Origin: an uncultured Candidatus Saccharibacteria bacterium
GTDB lineage: Bacteria > Patescibacteriota > Minisyncoccia > UBA6257 > 2-01-FULL-56-20
Direction of reading: 5' to 3'
Assembly (NCBI GenBank): GCA_964387675.1
Contig: CAYLWL010000002.1
Location: forward strand, 22,514-86,513
DNA length: 64,000 nucleotides
Shown: positions 3,745 through 54,828 of the stretch, piece after piece
Layout of the letters: the number at the start of each line of letters is the position of its first letter
How positions within the stretch are numbered: position 1 is the first letter of the stretch
Notes under the pieces: generated by a model
What the model was told of the DNA's origin: nothing
The model's database searches: none
What the model saw: only the letters and a program-made list of their open reading frames with translations
Translations under genes and position numbers: made by a program

Positions 3745-3783
3745 TTATTAGAATCTAGAATCTAGAAAATAGAAAGTAGAATT
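3745..3783. repeat. TAGAA-family hairpin arm (left arm flanking four-helix-bundle gene copy 1)
   Basis: ttattagaatctagaatctagaaaatagaaagtagaatt. The inverted partner is at 4147-4188. Confidence 0.7.
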
Positions 3784-4128
3784 ATGAGTAATACAAAATC
3801 TTTTAAAGATTTAATTGTATGGCAGAAAGCGCGGAGTTTGGCGGTTGCGGTATATAAACTTTCTGAACAATTTCCTAACGTAGAGCTATATGGCCTAACA
3901 AGTCAAATGCGTCGCGCGGCCATTTCCATTTCTTCCAACATCGCCGAAAGTTACCACCGTTTTCATAGAAAAGAAAAACAGCAGTTTCTTTCTATCGCTT
4001 TTGGCTCCGGCTCGGAACTAGAAAGCCAAATAGAAATCGCCAAAGTTTTATTTCCAAAGCTGGATTATCGAGAAAGTGAAGAATTATTGTTGGAGGTTAT
4101 GAAAATACTAAATAATTTTCTACAATGA
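3784..4128 (+). CDS. four-helix-bundle protein (23S rRNA intervening-sequence protein / DGR Avd-like family), copy 1
   Basis: 114 aa. WQKARSLAVAVYKLSEQFPNVELYGLTSQMRRAAISISSNIAESYHRF matches the S23-ribosomal/IVS four-helix-bundle family. Flanked by inverted TAGAA repeats. Confidence 0.8.
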   Translation: MSNTKSFKDLIVWQKARSLAVAVYKLSEQFPNVELYGLTSQMRRAAISISSNIAESYHRFHRKEKQQFLSIAFGSGSELESQIEIAKVLFPKLDYRESEELLLEVMKILNNFLQ

Positions 4129-5558
4129 TCAAAATCGAAAAATTAAAAATAGTTCTTCTACTTTCTATTTTCTATTTTCTACCTTCTCGTAAGCGGGGGC
4201 AGTCCACGATTGAGATTTTGATCGCGGTGACGATTCTGACCGCGGTTTTGACGAGCGCCGCCGCGCTCATTTTCGGCAGCCAATCGCTCTCGGTTGATTC
4301 CGCGGAAAGTAATCAGGCATTGCGTCTCGCCGAACAGGGCTTGGAGGGCGTCAAAAATCAGGCCAGATACGACTTCCTCAACATCGTTTCGAGCACCGTG
4401 ACGCAGGGTGAGTTCACGAAAAACATCATTGTCTCGAATGTAGGCGCGAACACGAAGCAAGTGGTAAGCCGCGTTACGTGGAGCACCGATCCGCAGAGAA
4501 CCCAGCAAGTCGAACTCGTGACGCTTGTGACGGATTGGCGCGGCGTGCAGGACACCGGCGGAGACACGGGGAGCGGCGGCGGTGGCGGCGGCGCTTCTGG
4601 CGACTGGTGCAATCCCGCAACCCTCGGCACGATCGATTTGGGATCGGGTGAGTCGGCGACGGGCATCGATGTGATCGCAACAACGACCTATATGACGGCA
4701 GTCGCTTCCTCCCCGAGCAAGAAGGACTTTTTCATCGTTGATGTTTCCAATTCCAGCACTCCTTCCATTATCGGGTCCATAGACACCGGGCCGGGACTCA
4801 ATGCTCTGGACGTGACGGCAAACTACGCTTATGTCGCGAGCGACGACAGCTCCAAGCAATTCCAAGCCATCGACGTCAGCAACAAGACCAGCCCGGTTCT
4901 CGTTGCATCCACCACTCTTACGAGCAATTCCGCCGTTGGACGGAGTATTTTTTACCATAATCAAAAAGTATATATCGGCACGGACGACAATAGTGGAAAC
5001 GAATTCCAGATTATCGACGTGGCCACTCCCGCAACCCCCGTGATTTTGGGAAGAGCTTCTTTGGATGAAGATGTGAATTCCATTTACGTGAGCGGGAACA
5101 AGGCATATCTTGCAACATCCGATACGTCGAAAGACGTGCAGATTTTCGATGTGTCGACTTCATCCGCGCCCGCGCTTCTTGGCACGTATGACATTTCGGG
5201 TGCCGGAGAAACGAAATGGCTGTATGTGGTTGGCACGAAAATGTATGTGGGCAGAGAAACCGGAGGAGATGAACTTTATGTATTGGATATTACGAATGCC
5301 ACTTCGGTGTCGGTGTTGGGCCATAAGGCGATCGGCAAAACGGTGAACGCGATTACAGTGCGCGGCAATTACGCGTTCCTTGCCACCTCCGACCCGAACA
5401 ACGAGCTCAAGATATTCGACGTTTCCAATCTTTCAAATATCACTTCCTGCAGTAACTTCAACTTTCCCAACATCGCGACCGCCGTCGATTTCGACGCCAA
5501 TCTGGTGTACACCGCCGTGCGATCGAACGACGGCCTGCGCATCGTGACATCGCAATAA
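4125..5558 (+). CDS. prepilin-like N-terminus fused to an LVIVD-repeat beta-propeller domain protein
   Basis: N-terminal KRGQSTIEILIAVTILTAVLTSAAALIFG is a pilin-type G/x-T-x-E plus TM. A Gly-rich linker (GGDTGSGGGGGGASGD) is followed by at least six repeats of the pattern xxIxDVSNxSxPxxxG (FIVDVSNSSTPSIIGS, QAIDVSNKTSPVLVAS, QIIDVATPATPVILGR, QIFDVSTSSAPALLGT, YVLDITNATSVSVLGH, KIFDVSNLSNITSCS). These are typical of LVIVD repeats. True start codon uncertain. Confidence 0.65.
   Translation: MIKIEKLKIVLLLSIFYFLPSRKRGQSTIEILIAVTILTAVLTSAAALIFGSQSLSVDSAESNQALRLAEQGLEGVKNQARYDFLNIVSSTVTQGEFTKNIIVSNVGANTKQVVSRVTWSTDPQRTQQVELVTLVTDWRGVQDTGGDTGSGGGGGGASGDWCNPATLGTIDLGSGESATGIDVIATTTYMTAVASSPSKKDFFIVDVSNSSTPSIIGSIDTGPGLNALDVTANYAYVASDDSSKQFQAIDVSNKTSPVLVASTTLTSNSAVGRSIFYHNQKVYIGTDDNSGNEFQIIDVATPATPVILGRASLDEDVNSIYVSGNKAYLATSDTSKDVQIFDVSTSSAPALLGTYDISGAGETKWLYVVGTKMYVGRETGGDELYVLDITNATSVSVLGHKAIGKTVNAITVRGNYAFLATSDPNNELKIFDVSNLSNITSCSNFNFPNIATAVDFDANLVYTAVRSNDGLRIVTSQ
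4147..4188. repeat. TAGAA-family hairpin arm (right arm); also encodes N-terminus of the following pilin-like ORF
   Basis: tagttcttctactttctattttctattttctaccttctcg is the reverse-complement partner of 3745-3783. It translates in frame as VLLLSIFYFLPSR preceding KRG|QSTIE. Confidence 0.7.
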
Positions 5559-10560: not shown

Positions 10561-11871
10561 ATGAGGTTGCGGGTTATTTTGGGAATAGTTGCTCTCGGCG
10601 CCATATTTTTTTTGGTTTTTGTGCCGCGCGTGGTTATTATCGCGCCCGTTGAACTTGCGAAAGTCGCCGTGAAATCGGCCGCTTCCGTTCTCCCCGGCAT
10701 TCCGGAAGCGATCGTTCCAGAGTCGAAACAAGGCCAGTCGAAAATATCGGGAACATCGGATTTGCCCAATCAGCCGCCGCTCGCAAACCCGCCGGATGTC
10801 GCAAAGGGGATCTATGTGACCGGTTGGTCGGCGGGTTCGCAGTCGAGAATAAGCTCGCTCATCGCGCTTGTGAAGCGCACGGAAGTAAACGCGATGGTGG
10901 TGGATATCAAGGATTATTCGGGCAATGTTTCGTACAGAACGGGGCTTCCGGAAGTTGTCGCGGCGGGCGCGGAAGGAGAAATCCGCGTCGCTCAGCCGAA
11001 TGCCCTCATCAAACGGCTTCACGACGAGCATATCTACATCATCGGGCGCATCACCGTGTTCCAGGATCCCATTTTGGCGAAGGCGCATCCCGAGTGGGCG
11101 CTTCAAAACAAAGTGACCGGCAAAACATGGACAGATAGCAAAAAACTTTCCTGGATGGATGCGGCCGCCAAGCCCGTTTGGGATTATACTATTGCTATCG
11201 CCAAGGATGCTTTCGCGCGCGGCTTCGACGAAATTCAATTCGATTATGTGCGGTTCGCCTCCGACGGCGCGCTCGGAGAGATCGATTATCCGTTTTGGGA
11301 CGCGAAAACGCCGCGGCACAAAGTCATCGCCGAGTTTTTCAAGTATCTGCGGGACAGCTTGCCGGGCAAGAAGATTTCCGCCGATCTTTTCGGTCTTGCG
11401 GCAGTTGATACCTGGGATGACCTGGGAATAGGCCAGGTTATTGAAGACGCCTACAAAAACTTCGATTACGTTTCGCCGATGGTGTATCCTTCGCACTTCG
11501 CCGCGGGAACGCTTGGCTATAAAAGCCCCGCCCAGCATCCGTACGAAATCGTAAAGTATTCGATGGAGCAGGCGCTCGCGAGGTTAGCAAAGAGCAAAGA
11601 GCAAAGAGCAAATAGTTCTTCTACTATTATTATCACAACATCATCCGATCAATTCGCTATCGGCCCTTTGCCCTTCGCTGCGAAGTTACGCCCGTGGCTT
11701 CAGGACTTCAATCTCGGAGCAACCTATAACGCGGAGATGGTGCGCAAGCAGATCCAGGCGACCTATGACGTTTTCCTGAACGGCACTTCGAGCGATCCTT
11801 CCAGATTCGGCGGCTGGATACTCTGGGATCCCGCGAATACGTACACGGAAGGAGCGTTGGAGCGAGGATGA
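10561..11871 (+). CDS. secreted/membrane-anchored hypothetical protein, possibly GH-like TIM-barrel (DUF4015/GHL10-type) family
   Basis: N-terminal TM/signal (ILGIVALGAIFFLVF). Motif block GIYVTGWSAGS...VNAMVVDIKDYSGNVSY recalls the COG1306 putative glycoside hydrolase family. Contains the in-frame repeat insertion LAKSKEQRANSSSTIIITTSS (11581-11640). Confidence 0.4.
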   Translation: MRLRVILGIVALGAIFFLVFVPRVVIIAPVELAKVAVKSAASVLPGIPEAIVPESKQGQSKISGTSDLPNQPPLANPPDVAKGIYVTGWSAGSQSRISSLIALVKRTEVNAMVVDIKDYSGNVSYRTGLPEVVAAGAEGEIRVAQPNALIKRLHDEHIYIIGRITVFQDPILAKAHPEWALQNKVTGKTWTDSKKLSWMDAAAKPVWDYTIAIAKDAFARGFDEIQFDYVRFASDGALGEIDYPFWDAKTPRHKVIAEFFKYLRDSLPGKKISADLFGLAAVDTWDDLGIGQVIEDAYKNFDYVSPMVYPSHFAAGTLGYKSPAQHPYEIVKYSMEQALARLAKSKEQRANSSSTIIITTSSDQFAIGPLPFAAKLRPWLQDFNLGATYNAEMVRKQIQATYDVFLNGTSSDPSRFGGWILWDPANTYTEGALERG

Positions 11872-11875
11872 TACT

Positions 11876-12619
11876 TTGAAACACATGACACAAACATACG
11901 AACTAAAGCTCGAAAAATTCAGCGGACCGCTTGAAAAACTCCTCGAATTGATCGAAGAGAAAAAGCTTCAGATTGCCGAAATCAGCTTGGCTCAAGTTAC
12001 GGATGATTTTTTGAAGTATTTTAAGGCGCTTACCGATCTCGAGCGGGATTTGCATCTTGTGGCGGATTTTATTTCTATCGCAAGCAAGCTGATCCTTATA
12101 AAGTCAAAGTTCTTACTGCCGGATTTGACGCTTACGCCGGATGAAGAGCAGGGCATCAAAGACCTTGAGAAGCGCCTCAAAATGTATCAAGAACTCAAGC
12201 CGGTGTTGAAGATTCTCGAGAAGCTTTGGCAGGGAGCGGAACGGGAATTCGGCCGGGAATACTTTTTGAGCAAGGGCTACGTATCGGGCGGAGATGCCCA
12301 TTTTGTTTTTTACCCGGGCAAGGGGCTGTATACGCAAGCTCTCTTCGAAGCGGCAAAAAAGCTTTTCGACGCGCTCCGCGTGGAGGAGCTCGAAACGAAA
12401 ACAATCAAAGAAAAGATCATCAGTATTGAAGAAAAGATTGGGGAGGTGATCAAAAGGATTGAGAACGAATTAGAGATGAACTTTTCCAATCTGTCGAGCA
12501 AAAAATCCCGATCGGAAATCGTAGTCATCTTCCTCGCTATTTTGCACCTGGCTCGCGAGCAGCTCATATATCTTGAGCAATCGGAGCATTTCTCTGATAT
12601 AATCGTTAGAAAGAAATGA
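11876..12619 (+). CDS. scpA: segregation and condensation protein A
   Basis: LEKFSGPLEKLLELIEEKKLQIAEISLAQVTDDFLKYF matches the ScpA N-terminal signature. Followed by scpB. Confidence 0.8.
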   Translation: MKHMTQTYELKLEKFSGPLEKLLELIEEKKLQIAEISLAQVTDDFLKYFKALTDLERDLHLVADFISIASKLILIKSKFLLPDLTLTPDEEQGIKDLEKRLKMYQELKPVLKILEKLWQGAEREFGREYFLSKGYVSGGDAHFVFYPGKGLYTQALFEAAKKLFDALRVEELETKTIKEKIISIEEKIGEVIKRIENELEMNFSNLSSKKSRSEIVVIFLAILHLAREQLIYLEQSEHFSDIIVRKK

Positions 12620-12650
12620 GATATGAGATATGAGAGATGAGGTCATAAAC
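12606..12650. repeat. ATGAGA-family hairpin arm (left arm flanking four-helix-bundle gene copy 2)
   Basis: agaaagaaatgagatatgagatatgagagatgaggtc. Provides the ATG of the 4HB ORF. Confidence 0.7.
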
Positions 12651-13004
12651 GAAGAAAAGTTTATTTTCGAGGATTTAAGGGTGTATCATAGAGCGTTGCA
12701 GCTTGCCGTTGAGCTTACTAAAATTGCAACAAAACTCCCCCACAGTTACTCGAGGATACGAGACCAGTTAATCGGGGCAGTTATTTCTATCCCATTAAAT
12801 CTTGCCGAAGGATCAGGTAGGTTGGGTGAAAAGGATAAAAAGAACTTCTATAAATTTAGTCGCTCTTCGGCATTTGAACTGATTCCAATTATTGATATAA
12901 TTTACCAATTAGAGCTTATCAACAAAGAGAAAAGAAATAATATTCGCCGCGAAGTTGTAGAACTTTCGCGTATCATTTCTGCTTTAATAAAAAAATCGTC
13001 CTAA
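12630..13004 (+). CDS. four-helix-bundle protein (23S rRNA IVS protein / Avd-like), copy 2
   Basis: KFIFEDLRVYHRALQLAVELTKIATKLPHSYSRIRDQLIGAVISIPLNLAEGSGR. Paralog of the 28266-28637 copy (about 60-65% identity by eye). Confidence 0.8.
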   Translation: MRDEVINEEKFIFEDLRVYHRALQLAVELTKIATKLPHSYSRIRDQLIGAVISIPLNLAEGSGRLGEKDKKNFYKFSRSSAFELIPIIDIIYQLELINKEKRNNIRREVVELSRIISALIKKSS

Positions 13005-13040
13005 TTTCTCATTTCTCATGTCTAATTTCTCAATAGAAAA
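13000..13040. repeat. ATGAGA-family hairpin arm (right arm); overlaps scpB start
   Basis: cctaatttctcatttctcatgtctaatttctcaatag. ATG TCT AAT TTC TCA = MSNFS of ScpB. Confidence 0.7.
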
Positions 13041-13623
13041 ACTTGCGGAACTCGAAGCCCTCTTATTTATCCACGGTGAGCCGTTGGCTTTGAAGAAAAT
13101 CAGGTCTCTTTTGGATGTCAAACCCGAGGAATTGGATTCGCTCATCGCCGAATTGAAAAAGTGCCTCGAAACCGAGAATAGGGGACTCGCGCTCGTCGAG
13201 GATGGCGAGAAAATACAGCTGGTAACCAAGCCGAAGTTCGGCAAAATCCTCGAGAGTTTTATAAAAGAGGAATTATCGGAAGACCTGACGCCGGCGAGTT
13301 TGGAGGCCATGGCGCTCATCACGTATTTCGGGCCTATTTCAAGAAGCCGGCTTGATTACCTTCGCGGCGTCAACTCCACGTTTATTTTAAGAAGTTTGCT
13401 TCTGCGGGGGCTCGTGGAGCGTTTTCCCGACCCCGAGCGGCAAAACGCTTTTTTGTATCGCCCAACTTTTGATTTGTTGAGGCACTTGGGGCTTGAAAAA
13501 AAAGAGGATCTGCCGGACTTCGAAAAGTTCCAGTCGCTCATCAAGGCATTTGAGGCCCAGCAGGAGGCGCCGCCCGCAGCAGATTCTGCCATCGGCATAG
13601 TTTCCGACGAACAGAACAAATGA
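13018..13623 (+). CDS. scpB: segregation and condensation protein B
   Basis: ELEALLFIHGEPLALKKIRSLL and the tandem winged-helix pattern of ScpB. Confidence 0.8.
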   Translation: MSNFSIEKLAELEALLFIHGEPLALKKIRSLLDVKPEELDSLIAELKKCLETENRGLALVEDGEKIQLVTKPKFGKILESFIKEELSEDLTPASLEAMALITYFGPISRSRLDYLRGVNSTFILRSLLLRGLVERFPDPERQNAFLYRPTFDLLRHLGLEKKEDLPDFEKFQSLIKAFEAQQEAPPAADSAIGIVSDEQNK

Positions 13624-18621: not shown

Positions 18622-18685
18622 TCCTGCCTGCCGGCAGGCAAGGCCTGTCTGCCGGCAGGCAGGCCTGCCTACCGGCAGACAGGGA
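18622..18685. repeat. GC-rich palindromic repeat (GCCTGCCGGCAGGCAGG units)
   Basis: cctgcctgccggcaggcaaggcctgtctgccggcaggcaggcctgcctaccggcagacaggg. Same family at 54726-54768. Confidence 0.75.
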
Positions 18686-27817: not shown

Positions 27818-28234
27818 TTGCCATTAGCCGCAACTATGGACCAACCCTCTCAATCATTTGAACATGAAGCCCTCGAGGCCGATATTAAAGCCCTTGCGCA
27901 GGAAGTCGAGAAACATCGCGAACTTCCGGAGAATAAAGGCGTGAGCGGGCAGGAGTTGTTAAAGAAAGCAATCCGTGCCTTGCCGCCGGTTTCAACCGCG
28001 ACAGAGCCCGTCTCAAAACCCTCACGGCCGAGTCCGCTCCCGCAGTACGCGCAAAGCGCCTCGCCGGAAGTCCGTCTTGAAATCGAGTACTTGATTGACT
28101 TGGCTTTCCACGCCGGTATCGGTAAGGCCTCGGCGGAAGCGAAGAAATCCCCCGATTTCGTGCAAGACGCTTTTCATGACGCCTTGGCCGGAAAACTGTA
28201 CCCGATGTTTCAGGAGAGGGGAATACTTAAATAG
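27818..28234 (+). CDS. hypothetical protein
   Basis: 138-aa ORF, acidic helical. Preceded by a ctttgctctttgcc repeat. Confidence 0.35.
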   Translation: MPLAATMDQPSQSFEHEALEADIKALAQEVEKHRELPENKGVSGQELLKKAIRALPPVSTATEPVSKPSRPSPLPQYAQSASPEVRLEIEYLIDLAFHAGIGKASAEAKKSPDFVQDAFHDALAGKLYPMFQERGILK

Positions 28235-28265
28235 AGATTAGAGATGAGAAATGAGATATTAGGAT
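28222..28265. repeat. ATGAGA-family hairpin arm (left arm flanking four-helix-bundle copy 3)
   Basis: tagagattagagatgagaaatgagatattaggatatgagc. Confidence 0.7.
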
Positions 28266-28637
28266 ATGAGCAATGAAAAATTTATTTTTGAAGATTTAAG
28301 GGTTTATCACGGGGCATTAAAACTTTCAGTGGAGCTTACTAAGCTGGCTACGAAATTTCCACACGACTATTCGAGAATACAAAATCAATTAATTGGAGCA
28401 GCTATTTCTGTTCCCTTGAATCTCGCCGAGGGTTCTGGAAGGGAAAGCGATAAGGATAAAAAGAATTTTTATAGAATTAGTAGATCATCTATTTTTGAAC
28501 TCGTGCCTCTTATTGATATAATTTACGAACTAGGACTCATAGGAAGCGACAAGCGAGATGAAATTCGTCACGAAGTTGCGGAACTTTCGCGAATTGTTTC
28601 CACCTTAATGAAAAACAAAGTTTCTCAAAAGTCCTAA
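28266..28637 (+). CDS. four-helix-bundle protein (23S rRNA IVS protein / Avd-like), copy 3
   Basis: MSNEKFIFEDLRVYHGALKLSVELTKLATKFPHDYSRIQNQLIGAAISVPLNLAEGSGR. Confidence 0.8.
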   Translation: MSNEKFIFEDLRVYHGALKLSVELTKLATKFPHDYSRIQNQLIGAAISVPLNLAEGSGRESDKDKKNFYRISRSSIFELVPLIDIIYELGLIGSDKRDEIRHEVAELSRIVSTLMKNKVSQKS

Positions 28638-28662
28638 TTTCTCATTTCTAATATCTCATCTC
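28625..28662. repeat. ATGAGA-family hairpin arm (right arm)
   Basis: cctaatttctcatttctaatatctcatctctaaat. The same right arm recurs at 59630-59665 and 36765-36780. Confidence 0.7.
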
Positions 28663-28667
28663 TAAAT

Positions 28668-35999: not shown

Positions 36000-36602
36000 C
36001 TACGCGGCTTGGCGGAACCGCGCTTTCCTCGATTGTGTCGAGAGGACTGCGATACTGCCGTGCGCGATGATGAGCACGATGGGTGTGACGAGCGCGATGA
36101 GCTTGTCGTCTCGCAGAACGACGTTCGTCGTCGTAACGAGGAGTGCTAGTGTCCAGAGCGCCCACGACCGAGGCGTCTCCTTGAATGGGTCTCGCCATAC
36201 TCCCTCGAAAGTTGGAATGAACGAGATGAGAAAGGCGACGAGAACGATCATGTTGGCTCCGGTTGCGCTCCGGAATTTCCACCACACCAGCGTTGCGAGT
36301 AGGCCAAGGGCGAACAGTCCCCACTCCTTCGGCTTCAACTTCGAGAACTTCCCGATGGTGAGCACGTAGAGGAATGTGAGAATGCACGCAACCGAGCCGG
36401 TGAAGAACTGGAGCGCCACCACCATGTCGCCGCTCATCTCACGATATGAGAGAGCATTGAGAGTGGCGAGAAACGCCCAGACACTCCAACTCGCAGCGTT
36501 GGGGCTGGATTTCCCCATTTTGGTCTGCACGTTGTACAGAACGTAAGCGACGCCGTGCAAGAGCGCCGCCGTTAGACCGAGAGCAATGGTTAGCTCTTGC
36601 AT
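36000..36602 (-). CDS. hypothetical polytopic membrane protein
   Basis: About 200 aa, 6 predicted TM helices. GGAGG RBS 7 nt before ATG 36602. Confidence 0.45.
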   Translation of the reverse strand: MQELTIALGLTAALLHGVAYVLYNVQTKMGKSSPNAASWSVWAFLATLNALSYREMSGDMVVALQFFTGSVACILTFLYVLTIGKFSKLKPKEWGLFALGLLATLVWWKFRSATGANMIVLVAFLISFIPTFEGVWRDPFKETPRSWALWTLALLVTTTNVVLRDDKLIALVTPIVLIIAHGSIAVLSTQSRKARFRQAA

Positions 36603-36680
36603 GACGCACCTCCGTATTGTTGATACTATTGAAAGTATAACAAAATTCCAAACACTTGTCAAGCTCAAAACAATAGTTTA

Positions 36681-37305
36681 TAATACAAACAGTTGGTAAT
36701 TCAGGCGATCGCTCTTGCGTGCGTAGCACGCAGAAAATGAGGTATGAGATATGAGAAATTAGGAACGACCTAATATCTCAAGGGAGAAGCCCGTTCTCAT
36801 TTCTTGTTTCTTGCGCGCTGCGCGCGCAGGGGAGGAAAGTCCGGACACCGGCGTGCGTGGCACGCAGCACGGGGCAAAGGGCAAATCGCAAAGGGCAGTC
36901 GGTTTAACCGAACTCTTTGCTCTTGGCTCTAAGCTATTTGCTGCGCGCTGCGCGCGCAAGCGTAGCGGCTAACAGCCGTCGTCCGCAAGGATAGAGGTGC
37001 GAGCAGAGACGCCGCGTGGCGAAAGCTTTACGCGGGGACCCAATCCTAAGCTCGTTGGTCTAGTCCTGCCATAGGGATAAAAAAGCAGGAGTGAAACGGC
37101 TAAATCCTTACAGGGTGTAAGGCCGTACTCCGATGTTACGCATCGGTTTGTGCCGCATTGAGCCAAAGAGTAATCGATGGCCCAGATAAATGATCGTCAG
37201 AGTGTTCCCGAATCCCGAATTACTTACGAATATACGAATTCGTATATTCGTGTAGATTCGTAATTAGCGAATACTCCACAGAATCCGGCTTACGAATTGC
37301 CAACG
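36681..37305 (+). ncRNA. rnpB: RNase P RNA (bacterial type), unusually long because of inserted repeat hairpins
   Basis: P4 5' strand GGAGGAAAGTCCGGAC at 36831-36846. P4 3' strand ACAGAATCCGGCTTA at 37278-37292. P1 pairing gttggtaattc (36681-36691) with gaattgccaac (37295-37305). Terminator immediately 3'. Confidence 0.75.
36733..36811. repeat. ATGAGA-family hairpin located inside rnpB at the P3 position
   Basis: gaaaatgaggtatgagatatgagaaattaggaacgacctaat...gttctcatttcttgtttc lies between the P1/P2 5' strands and the P4 5' strand. Confidence 0.65.
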
Positions 37306-37308
37306 AAT

Positions 37309-37345
37309 GAAAAATCCCTCCGACTGCGGTCGGAGGGATTTTCTT
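37309..37345. terminator. bidirectional rho-independent terminator (rnpB on +, mgtC on -)
   Basis: aaaaatccctccgac tgcg gtcggagggattttctt, with T/A runs on both sides. Confidence 0.75.
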
Positions 37346-37826
37346 AGTCAACATGATTGTCATCTCCAGATTCCACTTTCTTGCCGGGCCGGATTATTTC
37401 ATATAACCCGACTTTCCTTAAGAAATAGAGCAATCCTGTTATGATTAACGCCGTAGTGAAGGCAAATTTGATAAGACCAAGACCAACGAGCGTACCTATG
37501 GCCGCTGTGGCCCACACAACCGCAGCCGTTGTAAGGCCGCGTACGTGTTCGCCGGACTTAAGGATAATGCCGCCGCCGAGAAATCCAACACCGACCACGA
37601 TGTTGGAAACAACCCTGTCCGAGATAGTATTCAGGTTTTCGGGGTCTAAATTGAACACCTCCGGCATAACCAGAGAGATCATTGCGAACAAGCCGGCGCC
37701 GCCGGAAACAAGCATGGACGTTCTTATGCCGGCATCTTTGCCCAAAAGCTCTCTTTCAAGGCCTATTAACGCGCCCAAAGCAAGAGAGACCACCAGCCGC
37801 AAAACCATTTGTTCGAATGAAAGCAT
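37344..37826 (-). CDS. mgtC: MgtC/SapB family membrane protein
   Basis: LVVSLALGALIGLERELLGKDAGIRTSMLVSGGAGLFAMIS matches the MgtC signature. Confidence 0.75.
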   Translation of the reverse strand: MLSFEQMVLRLVVSLALGALIGLERELLGKDAGIRTSMLVSGGAGLFAMISLVMPEVFNLDPENLNTISDRVVSNIVVGVGFLGGGIILKSGEHVRGLTTAAVVWATAAIGTLVGLGLIKFAFTTALIITGLLYFLRKVGLYEIIRPGKKVESGDDNHVD

Positions 37827-37915
37827 TGGTTTATAATGTTGATTATAGCATAATCAACAATTTCCAATTTTACAACTCGAAATTTTCAATGATTTATTGA
37901 GAGTTTCAACAAAAT

Positions 37916-39229
37916 ATGGACAGAACTTATATCGGCAAAATCAAAGAAAAAATTGGAGAGAAAATAACGATCGAGGGTTTTGTGCAGACCGTCCGTGACC
38001 AGGGGAGTATTAAGTTTTTCATCGTGCGCGACGTGTCCGGCACCGTTCAGGTGGTGATCACGAAAAACAGCGCGGAGGCAATGAATGTCGCGAAGTTCGT
38101 AAGTTTGGAATCTGTTGTCAAAATTGAGGGGTTAGCTAAAGAAGAGGCTCAAGCTCCAGGCGGGTTCGAAGTTGCTGCAGAAAGCGTAGAAATTTTATCT
38201 CGCGCGAACCCCGAATTGCCGATCCCTGTTGTCGAAAAAGGAGCCGAAGAAACCGATCAACAGATCCGTTTGGATTGGAGGTGGATTGATTTGCGAAAAC
38301 CGGAGAAAGCCTTGATTTTCAAAGTGTGGACGACAATGGAGCAGGCGTTTAGAAACTTTTTTATTGAAAACGGATTTATCGAAATTCATTCGCCAAAATT
38401 GACGGCAACCGCCACGGAGTCCGGTGCTGAATTATTCGAGGTTAAATATTTTGATCGCAAGGCGCATCTTGCCCAATCGCCGCAGTTATACAAGCAAATG
38501 GCCATGGCGGCGGGGTTCGAAAAAGTTTTCGAGGTTGGGCCGGTTTTCCGGGCGAATCCTTCATTTACATCCCGGCATGATACGGAGTTCACTATGTACG
38601 ATATCGAAATGTCTTTTGTTTCTTCGCATCATGACCTGATGGACGTTGAAGAAAAAATGGTTGTCGCGATGCTTGCGGCGGTAAAAGAAAAGTACGGCGA
38701 CGAAATACAAAAAGCATATAACCGCGAAGTTATCGTGCCCAAAACCCCATTCCCTCGATTAACCATAAAAGAGGCAAAAGAAATTCTAGGGCGTTTGGGC
38801 ACTCCGAGCGAGCGTGGCGGCGACATGAGCCCGGAAGAAGAACGAGCTATCTCGGAACATGTGCGAAAAGAAACCGGAAACGAGTTTTTATTCCTTCACG
38901 AATTTCCGACTAAGGTCCGCGCCTTTTACAGTATGAGAAAAGATGATGACCCGACCGTAACCAAGAGTTTTGACCTGCTCTGGAACGGCATGGAAATTAC
39001 GAGTGGCGCCCAGAGAGAGCACAGGGTTGAACAATTGGAGAAGCAAATTAAGGAGCAGGGACTCAATCCGGCATCGTTCGAAACATATCTTAACTTTTTC
39101 CGATACGGGTGTCCTCCTCACGGCGGTTTTGCGCCCGGCCCTACGCGGATGCTGATGAAACTCTTTGATATAGCAAATGTCCGCGAGGTCACGTATCTCT
39201 ATCGTGGAGTAAAGAGATTAGAGCCATAA
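37916..39229 (+). CDS. aspS: aspartate--tRNA ligase, class IIb archaeal/eukaryotic-type (AspRS/AsnRS family)
   Basis: N-terminal OB fold, QSPQLYKQMAMAAGFEKVFEVGPVFRANPSFTSRHDTEFTMYD (motif 2), C-terminal GGFAPGPTRMLM (motif 3). Asp versus Asn specificity not resolvable by eye. Confidence 0.65.
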   Translation: MDRTYIGKIKEKIGEKITIEGFVQTVRDQGSIKFFIVRDVSGTVQVVITKNSAEAMNVAKFVSLESVVKIEGLAKEEAQAPGGFEVAAESVEILSRANPELPIPVVEKGAEETDQQIRLDWRWIDLRKPEKALIFKVWTTMEQAFRNFFIENGFIEIHSPKLTATATESGAELFEVKYFDRKAHLAQSPQLYKQMAMAAGFEKVFEVGPVFRANPSFTSRHDTEFTMYDIEMSFVSSHHDLMDVEEKMVVAMLAAVKEKYGDEIQKAYNREVIVPKTPFPRLTIKEAKEILGRLGTPSERGGDMSPEEERAISEHVRKETGNEFLFLHEFPTKVRAFYSMRKDDDPTVTKSFDLLWNGMEITSGAQREHRVEQLEKQIKEQGLNPASFETYLNFFRYGCPPHGGFAPGPTRMLMKLFDIANVREVTYLYRGVKRLEP

Positions 39230-54725: not shown

Positions 54726-54768
54726 CAGTGGCAGACCTGCCTGCCGGCAGGCAGGTCTGCCTGCCGGC
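54726..54768. repeat. GC-rich palindromic repeat (same family as 18622-18685)
   Basis: cctgcctgccggcaggcaggtctgcctgccggcaggcagggcg. Confidence 0.75.
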
Positions 54769-54828
54769 AGGCAGGGCGCTTGTTGACCCCGCACCTTCGG
54801 AGGCGTATTATTTTAGGAATCGATGCAA

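What the first reader, a model, noticed from the sequence alone, without database searches (positions are those of the whole stretch)
36681..37345. RNase P RNA expanded to about 625 nt by repeat-family hairpins, including an ATGAGA element at P3
Conserved P4 strands (GGAGGAAAGTCCGGAC; ACAGAATCCGGCTTA) and a P1 pairing (gttggtaattc/gaattgccaac) define rnpB. The RNA is about 250 nt longer than typical type A RNase P RNA. The extra sequence comprises an ATGAGA-family hairpin (36733-36811) exactly where P3 lies, GC palindromes (tgcgcgctgcgcgcgcag twice), the CTTTGCT/GCAAAGG motif (36875-36930), and AT-rich palindromes (cgaatatacgaattcgtatattcg, 37210-37277) before the P4 3' strand. The same hairpin element that carries 4HB ORFs elsewhere is thus tolerated inside an essential structural RNA, paralleling how 23S IVS elements behave in rRNA.
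Basis: partly seen in the sequence, partly recalled or inferred. Interest (0 to 1): 0.75.

Follow-up and report, generated by a model that had tools for sequence, protein, structure and literature searches.

The report
Repeat-expanded RNase P RNA gene
This is the real gene for the RNA subunit of RNase P in an uncultured Liptonbacteria (CPR) bacterium, nearly doubled to 613 nt by three long hairpins built from the genome's own 7-base repeats; it is unusually large and escapes standard annotation, but it extends phenomena already described.

Summary
Observation confirmed; interpretation supported. Window 36692-37304 (+) is rnpB, 613 nt from P1 to P1, with a near-consensus promoter that places the start at the first P1 base and a hairpin terminator just downstream. 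Rfam's class A model misses it at gathering threshold (34 bits, E 5e-9) and misplaces the 5' half. A profile built only from four relatives places all conserved blocks in order (222 bits). Five related rnpB genes share a core of about 340 nt, and 95% of 71 core pairs form, 30 of them with compensatory changes. The extra ~270 nt are three rod hairpins: P3 (121 nt), the P5-P7 hairpin (107 nt) and the P2-P4 junction or P19 site (77 nt). Relatives are short at these sites or carry unrelated expansions at these or other peripheral sites. All three rods contain heptamer repeats paired with their complements, part of a bloom specific to this genome (0.67 arrays per kb against about 0.07). The ATGAGA family in P3 also brackets ORFs for the 23S rRNA intervening-sequence protein. 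Divergent, expanded CPR RNase P RNAs and heptamer repeats in cyanobacterial rnpB are both published. This is therefore a new variant of a known kind. Whether RNase III excises the rods is untested.

The parts
36656..36684 (+). Promoter-like site: TTGTCA, 17-nt spacer, TATAAT (11 of 12 matches). It puts the transcription start at about 36691-36692, the first base of P1.
36692..37304 (+). rnpB, the RNase P RNA (class A-derived), 613 nt from the P1 5' strand to the P1 3' strand.
36692..36710 (+). P1 5' strand (36692-36702) and P2 5' strand (36704-36710). They pair with 37294-37304 and 37192-37198.
   Evidence: P1 100% and P2 97% of cells paired, 9 pairs with compensatory changes
36712..36832 (+). 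P3 rod, a 121-nt hairpin. It has a 16-bp GC-rich basal stem (36712-36727 with 36817-36832) and a distal hairpin of the ATGAGA heptamer family (36733-36811).
   Evidence: -66.3 kcal/mol, z -7.9. P3 is about 20 nt in L073, L076 and L078
36831..36849 (+). Conserved block GGAGGAAAGTCCGGAC, with the P4 5' strand at 36837-36844, followed by the P5 5' strand CACC at 36846-36849.
   Evidence: identical to the relatives' consensus; P4 7 of 7 pairs, invariant
36851..36957 (+). Rod at the hairpin between P5 and P7 (the position of P5.1 in type B RNAs), 107 nt. Its basal stem is nearly identical to that of the P3 rod. Its distal part is built from the GCAAAGR / YCTTTGC heptamer family.
   Evidence: -63.2 kcal/mol, z -5.5. 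The hairpin is 18-21 nt in L068, L073, L076 and L079 and about 105 nt of unrelated sequence in L078
36962..37117 (+). Specificity domain and P5/P7 closure: P7, P8 (UAACA loop), P9 (GCAA loop), P10, P12 (GAAA loop), two further hairpins with a covarying loop-loop pairing (37044-37047 with 37074-37077), then the 3' strands of P10, P7 and P5.
37121..37198 (+). P15 with its inner hairpin, P18 (GUAA loop), the J18/2 stretch CCCAGATAAATGAT, and the P2 3' strand at 37192-37198.
37200..37276 (+). Rod at the junction between the P2 3' strand and the P4 3' strand (the P19 position), 77 nt, AT-rich. It contains CCGAAT-type heptamers and the palindrome CGAATATACGAATTCGTATATTCG.
   Evidence: -30.9 kcal/mol, z -6.8; shown as a clean insert. 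The segment is 8 nt in L078, 23 in L068, 35 in L079 and 121 in L073
37278..37304 (+). ACAGAATCCGGCTTA, with the P4 3' strand at 37285-37291, followed by the P1 3' strand at 37294-37304.
37311..37342 (.). Perfect 14-bp hairpin (AAAATCCCTCCGAC / GTCGGAGGGATTTT) followed by T-rich sequence. It is probably a bidirectional terminator shared with the convergent mgtC gene (37344-37826, minus strand).
   Evidence: inverted repeat I3. The simple terminator scan did not call it

Best explanation
The locus is the functional rnpB of a Candidatus Liptonbacteria (Patescibacteria/CPR) genome.

An intact core of about 340 nt carries three long rod-like hairpins at peripheral positions. The core comprises P1, P2, P4, P5, P7-P10, P12, a lineage-specific specificity domain, P15 and P18. 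The rods replace or extend P3, extend the small hairpin this lineage has between P5 and P7, and extend the hairpin between P2 and P4 on the 3' side (the P19 site).

All three rods contain tandem heptanucleotide repeats paired with complementary repeats. These are copies of hairpin elements that have proliferated throughout this particular genome. One family (ATGAGAN) also forms the stems around S23p / four-helix-bundle 'IVS protein' ORFs.

Shown here: the identity of the gene, the integrity of the core, the position and fold of the rods, their repeat-family membership, and that relatives lack them or carry different expansions.

Inferred: the rods arose by insertion or slippage of selfish or neutral repeat hairpins. 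They persist because these helices point away from the catalytic centre, so the ribozyme works with the rods retained as passive helical extensions. The cyanobacterial STRR-expanded P12 is the model for this.
For: Identity of the gene:
- RF00010 hits the locus at E 5e-9 with the 3' half well aligned.
- Related rnpB genes with matching conserved strands score 63-153 bits: L068, L073, L076, L078, L079 and the more distant L005. In L068, L073, L076, L078 and L079 rnpB lies in the same neighbourhood, next to or within about 1.3 kb of mgtC.
- A relatives-only profile gives a single hit in 64 kb, 222 bits, with the conserved blocks in the expected order.

Integrity of the core:
- 95.1% of 348 pair cells form, against 31-46% when partners are slid.
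- 30 of 71 pairs show compensatory changes; P4 is invariant and fully paired.
- A promoter sits at the right distance and a terminator hairpin follows the gene.

The rods:
- Each folds alone as one hairpin (z -7.9, -5.5, -6.8), and all three persist in the full-length fold (z -14.7).
- Segment lengths in the window against relatives are 142 against 39-124, 121 against 31-127, and 83 against 8-121.

Repeat origin:
- The ATGAGA and GCAAAGR families are strongly over-represented.
- Four period-7 arrays lie inside rnpB.
- Period-7 arrays run at 0.67 per kb in the window against about 0.07 per kb in 24 other CPR loci.
- Stand-alone copies fold with the same pattern of 6-bp blocks separated by single mismatches.

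Background:
- CPR RNase P RNAs with large helix extensions below Rfam thresholds are published (PMC8172020).
Against: - There are no expression or activity data.
- The middle of the gene (36828-37080, including the P5-P7 rod) is not covered by the independent Logan contigs I could fetch; they stop at 36754 or 36827 and at 37081.
- Long near-perfect duplexes are potential RNase III substrates, so retention of the rods is an assumption.
- The covariation test used only 5 sequences, with a structure derived from the window's own RNA.
- The P19-site rod has no second copy in the window, so its membership of a repeat family rests only on its heptamer periodicity.
Confidence: 0.6

Rival explanations
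1. The gene is the same, but the rods behave like rRNA intervening sequences. RNase III cuts the long duplexes and removes the distal parts. The mature RNase P RNA is then a non-covalent assembly of two to four fragments held together by P1, P2, P4 and the remaining stem bases.
For: - The hairpin in P3 belongs to the family whose arms enclose S23p / 23S_rRNA_IVP ORFs.
- The classical Coxiella 23S IVS has the same build: tandem heptamers before the S23p ORF and a 28-bp terminal stem. RNase III excises it at the first heptamer (PMC4990558).
- The P3 rod offers 16 uninterrupted base pairs plus 5 more across one mismatch.
- One Logan contig joins the rnpB GC stem directly to 23S domain V sequence, which hints at a sister copy in the 23S gene.
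Against: - No RNA data are available.
- The distal heptamer stems have a mismatch every 7 nt.
- From my own knowledge, the STRR-expanded P12 of cyanobacterial RNase P RNA is retained in the mature RNA.
- The L072 junction may be a chimeric unitig.
- I did not check whether the genome encodes RNase III.
Confidence: 0.22
2. The rods are functional additions, not passengers. They could stabilise the fold of an RNA that lacks P13/P14 and P6/P16/P17 tertiary contacts, or they could recruit a protein, as extended P3 does in eukaryotic RNase P/MRP.
For: - The lineage lacks the standard P13/P14 and P16/P17 layout and has conserved small hairpins at the P5-P7 and P19 sites. All six lineage members have a P5-P7 hairpin, with covarying sequences.
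- Two rods share an almost identical 16-bp basal stem flanking the P4 5' strand.
Against: - Close relatives manage with hairpins of 18-21 nt or no expansion at the same sites.
- The expansions in relatives are unrelated in sequence and sit at different helices.
- The rod sequences are generic genome repeats.
Confidence: 0.1
3. The locus is a decaying pseudogene invaded by repeats, or a mis-assembly produced by repeats. The true RNase P function lies elsewhere.
For: - The Rfam score is far below gathering.
- Short-read unitigs break inside the gene, and one is chimeric with 23S sequence.
Against: - Every conserved block matches the relatives' consensus or lies in the correct order, and inserts occur only at peripheral helices.
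- P1, P2, P4 and P5 all pair.
- The promoter and terminator are intact.
- Independent contigs from at least 7 samples are 100% identical over 36001-36827 and 37081-38000, so they confirm the P3 rod and the P19-site rod.
- A mis-join between the two GC repeats would delete the P4 5' strand, which is present.
Confidence: 0.05

Closest known systems
Divergent RNase P RNAs of Candidate Phyla Radiation bacteria (Lui, Nielsen and Arkin 2021, PMC8172020)
   Same: - Same superphylum.
- RF00010 scores fall below the curated thresholds.
- 'Large extensions of helices' that need manual refolding.
- Standard P13/P14/P16/P17 are missing.
   Different: - The passages of that paper I read do not link the extensions to repeat families, and its one figured example is an extended P15.
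- Here three sites are expanded in one RNA (P3, P5-P7, P19 site), and the material is traced to genome-wide heptamer hairpins.
STRR heptamer repeats inside rnpB of heterocyst-forming cyanobacteria (Vioque 1997, Nucleic Acids Res 25:3471; title seen, details from my own knowledge)
   Same: Short tandem heptanucleotide repeats that are dispersed through the genome also lie inside the RNase P RNA gene. There they lengthen a peripheral helix without destroying function.
   Different: - Different phylum and different repeat units.
- In cyanobacteria the site is P12 (own knowledge). Here P12 is unexpanded, and the sites are P3, the P5-P7 hairpin and the P19 site, adding about 270 nt in total.
23S rRNA intervening sequences carrying an S23p / four-helix-bundle ORF (for example Coxiella burnetii; PMC4990558)
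   Same: - Terminal inverted repeats form a long stem.
- Tandem heptamers lie in the 5' arm.
- The same ORF family (PF05635) sits in the loop of the long copies in this window.
   Different: - The host RNA is RNase P RNA, not 23S rRNA.
- The copy in P3 has no ORF.
- Excision by RNase III is shown for the 23S IVS and is untested here.
Type B (Bacillus-type) RNase P RNA elements P5.1 and P19 (own knowledge)
   Same: The hairpins are at the same two topological positions: between P5 and P7, and between the 3' strands of P2 and P4.
   Different: Rfam's class A model is the best match for all lineage members. Homology of these hairpins to the type B elements was not tested.

Membership tests
Bacterial RNase P RNA, class A (Rfam RF00010) | Score at or above the curated gathering threshold (100 bits). 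| tested here: not met
   The window scores 34.4 bits, E 5e-9, and the 5' half is misaligned. Relatives score 62.6-152.9 bits; only L005 and L078 pass. The shortfall grows with the number of large inserts.
Bacterial RNase P RNA, class A (Rfam RF00010) | Universally conserved P4 strands (GGAAAGUCCGG and ACAGAAnCCGGCUUA) that can pair with a bulged U. | tested here: met
   36831-36846 and 37278-37292; 7 of 7 pairs, invariant in 5 lineage members.
Bacterial RNase P RNA, class A (Rfam RF00010) | P1 and P2 close the molecule; P5, P7, P8, P9 and P10 form the junction; P12, P15 and P18 are present. | tested here: met
   These helices pair in 80-100% of cells, with compensatory changes in P1, P2, P5, P8, P9 and P12. 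P8 has a UAACA loop and P18 a GUAA loop.
Bacterial RNase P RNA, class A (Rfam RF00010) | P6/P16/P17 pseudoknot and P13/P14 in the standard arrangement. | tested here: inconclusive
   The P15 region is only 35 nt, with one inner hairpin and no evident P6 partner. The specificity domain has two hairpins with a covarying loop-loop pairing in place of a recognisable P13/P14. Loss of these helices is reported as common in CPR.
Bacterial RNase P RNA, class A (Rfam RF00010) | Catalytic activity on pre-tRNA. | not testable with these tools
   No expression or biochemical data are available.
STRR-like heptanucleotide repeat hairpins | Tandem 7-nt units, dispersed in many copies through the genome. | tested here: met
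   43 period-7 TRF rows in 64 kb, 4 of them inside rnpB. This is about 10-fold above 24 other CPR loci. The ATGAGA and GCAAAGR families give 23 and 14 matches against 1.0 and 0.2 expected.
IVS-type element (S23p ORF, inverted heptamer arms, RNase III excision) | Inverted terminal arms forming a long stem, with heptamer repeats. | tested here: met
   compared with the Coxiella IVS description.
IVS-type element (S23p ORF, inverted heptamer arms, RNase III excision) | S23p / four-helix-bundle ORF between the arms. | tested here: not met
   The copy in P3 has only about 13 nt plus a small side hairpin between its arms. The ORF is present in the sister copies at 12630-13004 and 28266-28637.
IVS-type element (S23p ORF, inverted heptamer arms, RNase III excision) | Excision from the host RNA by RNase III. 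| not testable with these tools
   Needs RNA-end mapping or an in vitro cleavage assay.

The most novel reading that the evidence does not exclude
The heptamer-armed S23p/IVS element is a mobile hairpin that colonises structured RNA genes in general, not only 23S rRNA. In this organism RNase III trims the rods, so the essential RNase P ribozyme exists in the cell as a naturally fragmented, multi-piece RNA.
Probability: 0.2. Interest if true: 0.8.

Novelty: new variant of a known kind. Interest (0 to 1): 0.45.

Why it matters
- **Annotation.** This is an essential gene that the standard Rfam cut-off misses. Genome-completeness checks on CPR genomes that rely on rnpB would wrongly flag it as absent. 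A lineage profile or an insert-tolerant search recovers it.
- **Evolution of the RNA.** Six related genomes show independent expansions of 60-120 nt at five different peripheral helices on a constant core of about 340 nt. This gives a natural map of where the ribozyme tolerates extra sequence.
- **Link between repeats and IVS elements.** A genome-wide bloom of heptamer hairpins is tied to the long-puzzling S23p-bearing intervening sequences of 23S rRNA. It yields a concrete test: are IVS-type stems in a non-ribosomal RNA also excised by RNase III?

Tried and rejected
- **Rfam at gathering threshold on the whole window:** no RNase P hit.
- **Rfam on the sub-region:** the hit is sub-threshold and the global alignment skips the true P1-P4 5' strands. 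It cannot be used to map the 5' inserts.
- **Full-length covariance model of the lineage:** not feasible, because about 350 positions exceed the calibration limit. I used an nhmmer profile from relatives plus a pair count instead.
- **RNAalifold on the relatives:** it recovered P1, P2, P3, P8, P9, P12 and P18 but mispaired P5 and P10/P11. I replaced it with a curated structure.
- **AspRS-based synteny in genome contigs:** 60 loci, of which only L003 and L005 held rnpB within 10 kb. mgtC adjacency worked better. L075, L077, L080 and L081 had no rnpB nearby.
- **Independent contigs for the middle of the gene:** look-ups through two spurious ORFs found nothing on record.
- **Vioque 1997:** the full text is not held.
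- **Literature searches:** 'RNase P RNA' with 'Patescibacteria' found nothing, and I found no paper on heptamer repeats in CPR.
- **Idea rejected:** that the GC palindromes are free-standing hairpins. In every fold they pair with the GCGTGCGTRGCACGCAG strands to form the basal stems.

Full report

Yes. The conserved strands are present:
- GGAGGAAAGTCCGGAC lies at 36831-36846.
- ACAGAATCCGGCTTA lies at 37278-37292.
- GTTGGTAATTC (36692-36702) is perfectly complementary to GAATTGCCAAC (37294-37304).

From P1 to P1 the RNA is 613 nt. The named motifs are there and are far from chance:

| Motif | Matches in window | Expected by chance |
|---|---|---|
| TGCGCGCTGCGCGCGCA | 2, both inside the gene | 0.04 |
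| ATGAGATATGAGA (up to 2 mismatches) | 23 | 1.0 |
| GCAAAGRGCAAAG (up to 1 mismatch) | 14 | 0.22 |

The AT-rich palindrome is unique in the window.

**2. Is it RNase P RNA?**

Rfam's class A model does not report the locus at its gathering score. Run on the sub-region with permissive filters, it gives 34.4 bits and E 5e-9. P8, P9, P15, P18, the P4 3' strand and the P1 3' strand are well aligned. The alignment begins at 36872, however, and omits the true 5' strands. I therefore brought in relatives.

NCBI names the identical mgtC product next door as coming from a Candidatus Liptonbacteria bacterium. The AspRS neighbour is at most 81% identical to other Patescibacteria MAGs.

Through mgtC and AspRS neighbours I recovered these related rnpB genes:

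| Locus | Length | RF00010 score |
|---|---|---|
| L068 | 465 nt | 88 bits |
| L073 / L074 | 566 nt | 67.5 bits |
| L076 | 3'-truncated | 71.8 bits |
| L078 | 444 nt | 105.7 bits |
| L079 | 475 nt | 62.6 bits |
| L005 (more distant) | 450 nt | 152.9 bits |
| L003 (more distant) | about 337 nt | 78 bits |

L068, L076 and L078 share the window's P1/P2 5' strand almost letter for letter.

An nhmmer profile built only from four complete relatives, with their own idiosyncratic expansions trimmed, finds one hit in the 64-kb window. It spans 36959-37303 at 222 bits and E 2e-67, with a clean insert of about 75 nt between the P2 3' and P4 3' strands. On the upstream stretch the same profile places model positions 1-25 at 36692-36716 and 36-57 at 36828-36849, both identical to the consensus.

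I then counted a curated structure on an alignment of the window's RNA (rods trimmed to stubs) plus the four relatives. The structure includes P1, P2, P4 as a pseudoknot, P5, P7-P10, P12, two specificity-domain hairpins and their loop-loop pairing, P15 and P18. The results:
- 95.1% of 348 cells pair, against 31-46% when partners are slid by 1-3 columns.
- 30 of 71 pairs show compensatory changes.
- No shuffle out of 500 reaches the observed values.

The caveats are that there are only five sequences and that the structure was derived from one of them.

A TTGTCA-17-TATAAT promoter (11 of 12 matches) ends at 36684. That places the start at the first base of P1. A perfect 14-bp hairpin at 37311-37342 follows the gene.

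**3. Where is the extra sequence, and what is it?**

Segment lengths between conserved anchors give a lineage core of about 340 nt:

| Segment | Window | Relatives |
|---|---|---|
| 5' end to P4 | 142 nt | 39, 41, 47, 73, 124 |
| P4 to the P8 loop | 121 nt | 31, 32, 33, 41, 127 |
| P2 3' strand to P4 3' strand | 83 nt | 8, 23, 35, 121 |
| P15-17 | 35 nt (unexpanded) | L073 86, L076 58, L079 54 |
| P18 | 18 nt (unexpanded) | L068 81, L073 77 |

Expansion at peripheral helices is therefore a lineage habit. Each genome has its own set, and the window has three.

Each extra segment folds on its own into one long rod:

| Rod | Coordinates | Free energy | z-score |
|---|---|---|---|
| P3 | 36712-36832 | -66.3 kcal/mol | -7.9 |
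| P5-P7 hairpin | 36851-36957 | -63.2 kcal/mol | -5.5 |
| P19 site | 37200-37276 | -30.9 kcal/mol | -6.8 |

All three rods persist in the fold of the full 613-nt RNA (z -14.7).

The two rods that flank the P4 5' strand share an almost identical basal stem. Its strands are 5' GCGTGCGT(A/G)GCACGCAG and 3' TGCGCGCTGCGCGCGCA. These sequences occur nowhere else in the window.

**4. Repeat origin**

- The distal P3 rod aligns with five other ATGAGA elements in the window.
- The distal P5-P7 rod is built from a second family, (GCAAAGR)n paired with (YCTTTGC)n. That family also occurs at 11587, 27802, 50289 and 52050.
- Tandem Repeats Finder reports four period-7 arrays inside rnpB, at 36737, 36872, 36940 and 37206. 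It reports 43 period-7 rows in the window, with many different units.
- That is 0.67 per kb, against 0-0.37 per kb (mean about 0.07) in 24 other CPR loci. The heptamer bloom is a trait of this genome.
- Stand-alone copies fold like the rods: 6-bp blocks separated by single mismatches.

**5. Link to intervening sequences**

Two long ATGAGA elements (12612-13032 and 28232-28663) enclose ORFs that match PF05635 '23S rRNA-intervening sequence protein' and TIGR02436 'four helix bundle protein' at E about 1e-22. A third such ORF (3784-4128, E 1e-32) is bracketed by a different heptamer unit.

The Coxiella 23S IVS, which carries the same ORF family, is described as having three tandem heptamers before the ORF and a 28-bp terminal stem. 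RNase III cleaves it at the first heptamer (PMC4990558).

One Logan contig (L072) follows the window exactly to 36827 and then runs into 23S domain V sequence. This is either a chimera or a hint that a sister copy sits in the 23S gene.

**6. Mechanism**

The gene, its core, the rods and their origin are shown here. The rest is inferred. The rods are selfish or neutral repeat hairpins that landed in, or grew by slippage at, helices that project away from the active site. I judge it most likely that they are retained as passive extensions (about 0.6), by analogy with STRR-expanded P12 in cyanobacterial rnpB (title seen; details from my own knowledge).

The main rival (about 0.2) is RNase III excision, which would give a fragmented ribozyme. 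A structural or protein-binding role (about 0.1) and a pseudogene or artefact (about 0.05) are less likely. The reasons are:
- relatives do without these rods;
- the conserved blocks are intact and in order;
- independent contigs from at least 7 samples match 36001-36827 and 37081-38000 exactly.

The middle 250 nt lack such independent confirmation.

**7. Novelty**

Three things are already in the literature:
- divergent CPR RNase P RNAs with large helix extensions that evade Rfam thresholds (PMC8172020);
- heptamer repeats inside cyanobacterial rnpB;
- S23p-bearing IVS elements.

What is new here:
- three repeat-derived rods at P3, the P5-P7 hairpin and the P19 site in one bacterial RNase P RNA of 613 nt;
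- the duplicated basal stem around the P4 5' strand;
- the tie between these rods and IVS-type heptamer elements in a CPR genome.

I rate it a new variant of a known kind, with interest 0.45.

Noticed in passing
L072:1-59 (Logan SRR12113426), junction at window 36827: This contig is identical to window 36001-36827. Directly after TTGCGCGCTGCGCGCGC it continues with 23S rRNA domain V sequence (...CTACTCCGGGGATAACAGGCTGATC). It is either a chimeric unitig or evidence that the same GC-stem/ATGAGA element sits in this organism's 23S gene.
   Followed up: partly
window 36754 and 37081: Short-read (Logan) contigs from several samples all stop at the same two points inside rnpB: in the ATGAGA repeat, and in the A-run of the conserved specificity domain. 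The extra tail on one contig (L065) is a Nextera adapter.
   Followed up: partly
window 1-64000 (for example 3749, 5637, 6650, 43112, 49271, 50244, 58589, 61610, 62923): There are 43 period-7 tandem-repeat rows with many different units (TAGAATC, GTGTCAG, AGTATCA, GCTTATC and others). This is about ten times the density in 24 other CPR loci. It is an STRR-like heptamer bloom in a CPR genome.
   Followed up: partly
window 3749-4187, 12612-13032, 28232-28663: Three ORFs of the S23p / four-helix-bundle / 23S rRNA IVS protein family (PF05635) are each bracketed by inverted heptamer-repeat arms and lie between ordinary protein genes rather than in rRNA. The one at 12630-13004 sits between the ORFs at 11876-12619 and 13018-13623, which look like scpA and scpB (not checked).
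   Followed up: partly
window 18623-18683 and 54737-54775: A 20-nt palindromic GC-rich unit (CCTGCCTGCCGGCAGGCAGG) is repeated in tandem at two distant sites. The second site lies just upstream of a tRNA gene (54829).
   Followed up: no
window 37044-37047 with 37074-37077: A loop-loop pairing (UCCU with GGGA) between two specificity-domain hairpins covaries across lineage members (3 of 4 pairs show compensatory changes). It may be a lineage-specific substitute for the standard P13/P14 contacts.
   Followed up: partly
window 36634-36684: Two near-consensus promoters (11 of 12 matches each) lie back to back and overlap. One serves rnpB on the plus strand and the other serves the 200-aa membrane-protein gene on the minus strand.
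   Followed up: no
L073:3264-3829; L078:4184-4627; L079:3032-3505 (minus strand); L068:4554-5017 (minus strand): Related rnpB genes carry their own unrelated expansions. L073 has P15-17, P18 and a 121-nt P19-site segment. L078 has a P5-P7 rod of about 105 nt. L079 has a P3 of about 115 nt. L068 has 63 extra nt at P18. Only L078 passes Rfam's gathering score.
   Followed up: yes
L007:8651-8849: There is a group I intron hit (62 bits) in the locus of a Candidatus Amesbacteria relative.
   Followed up: no
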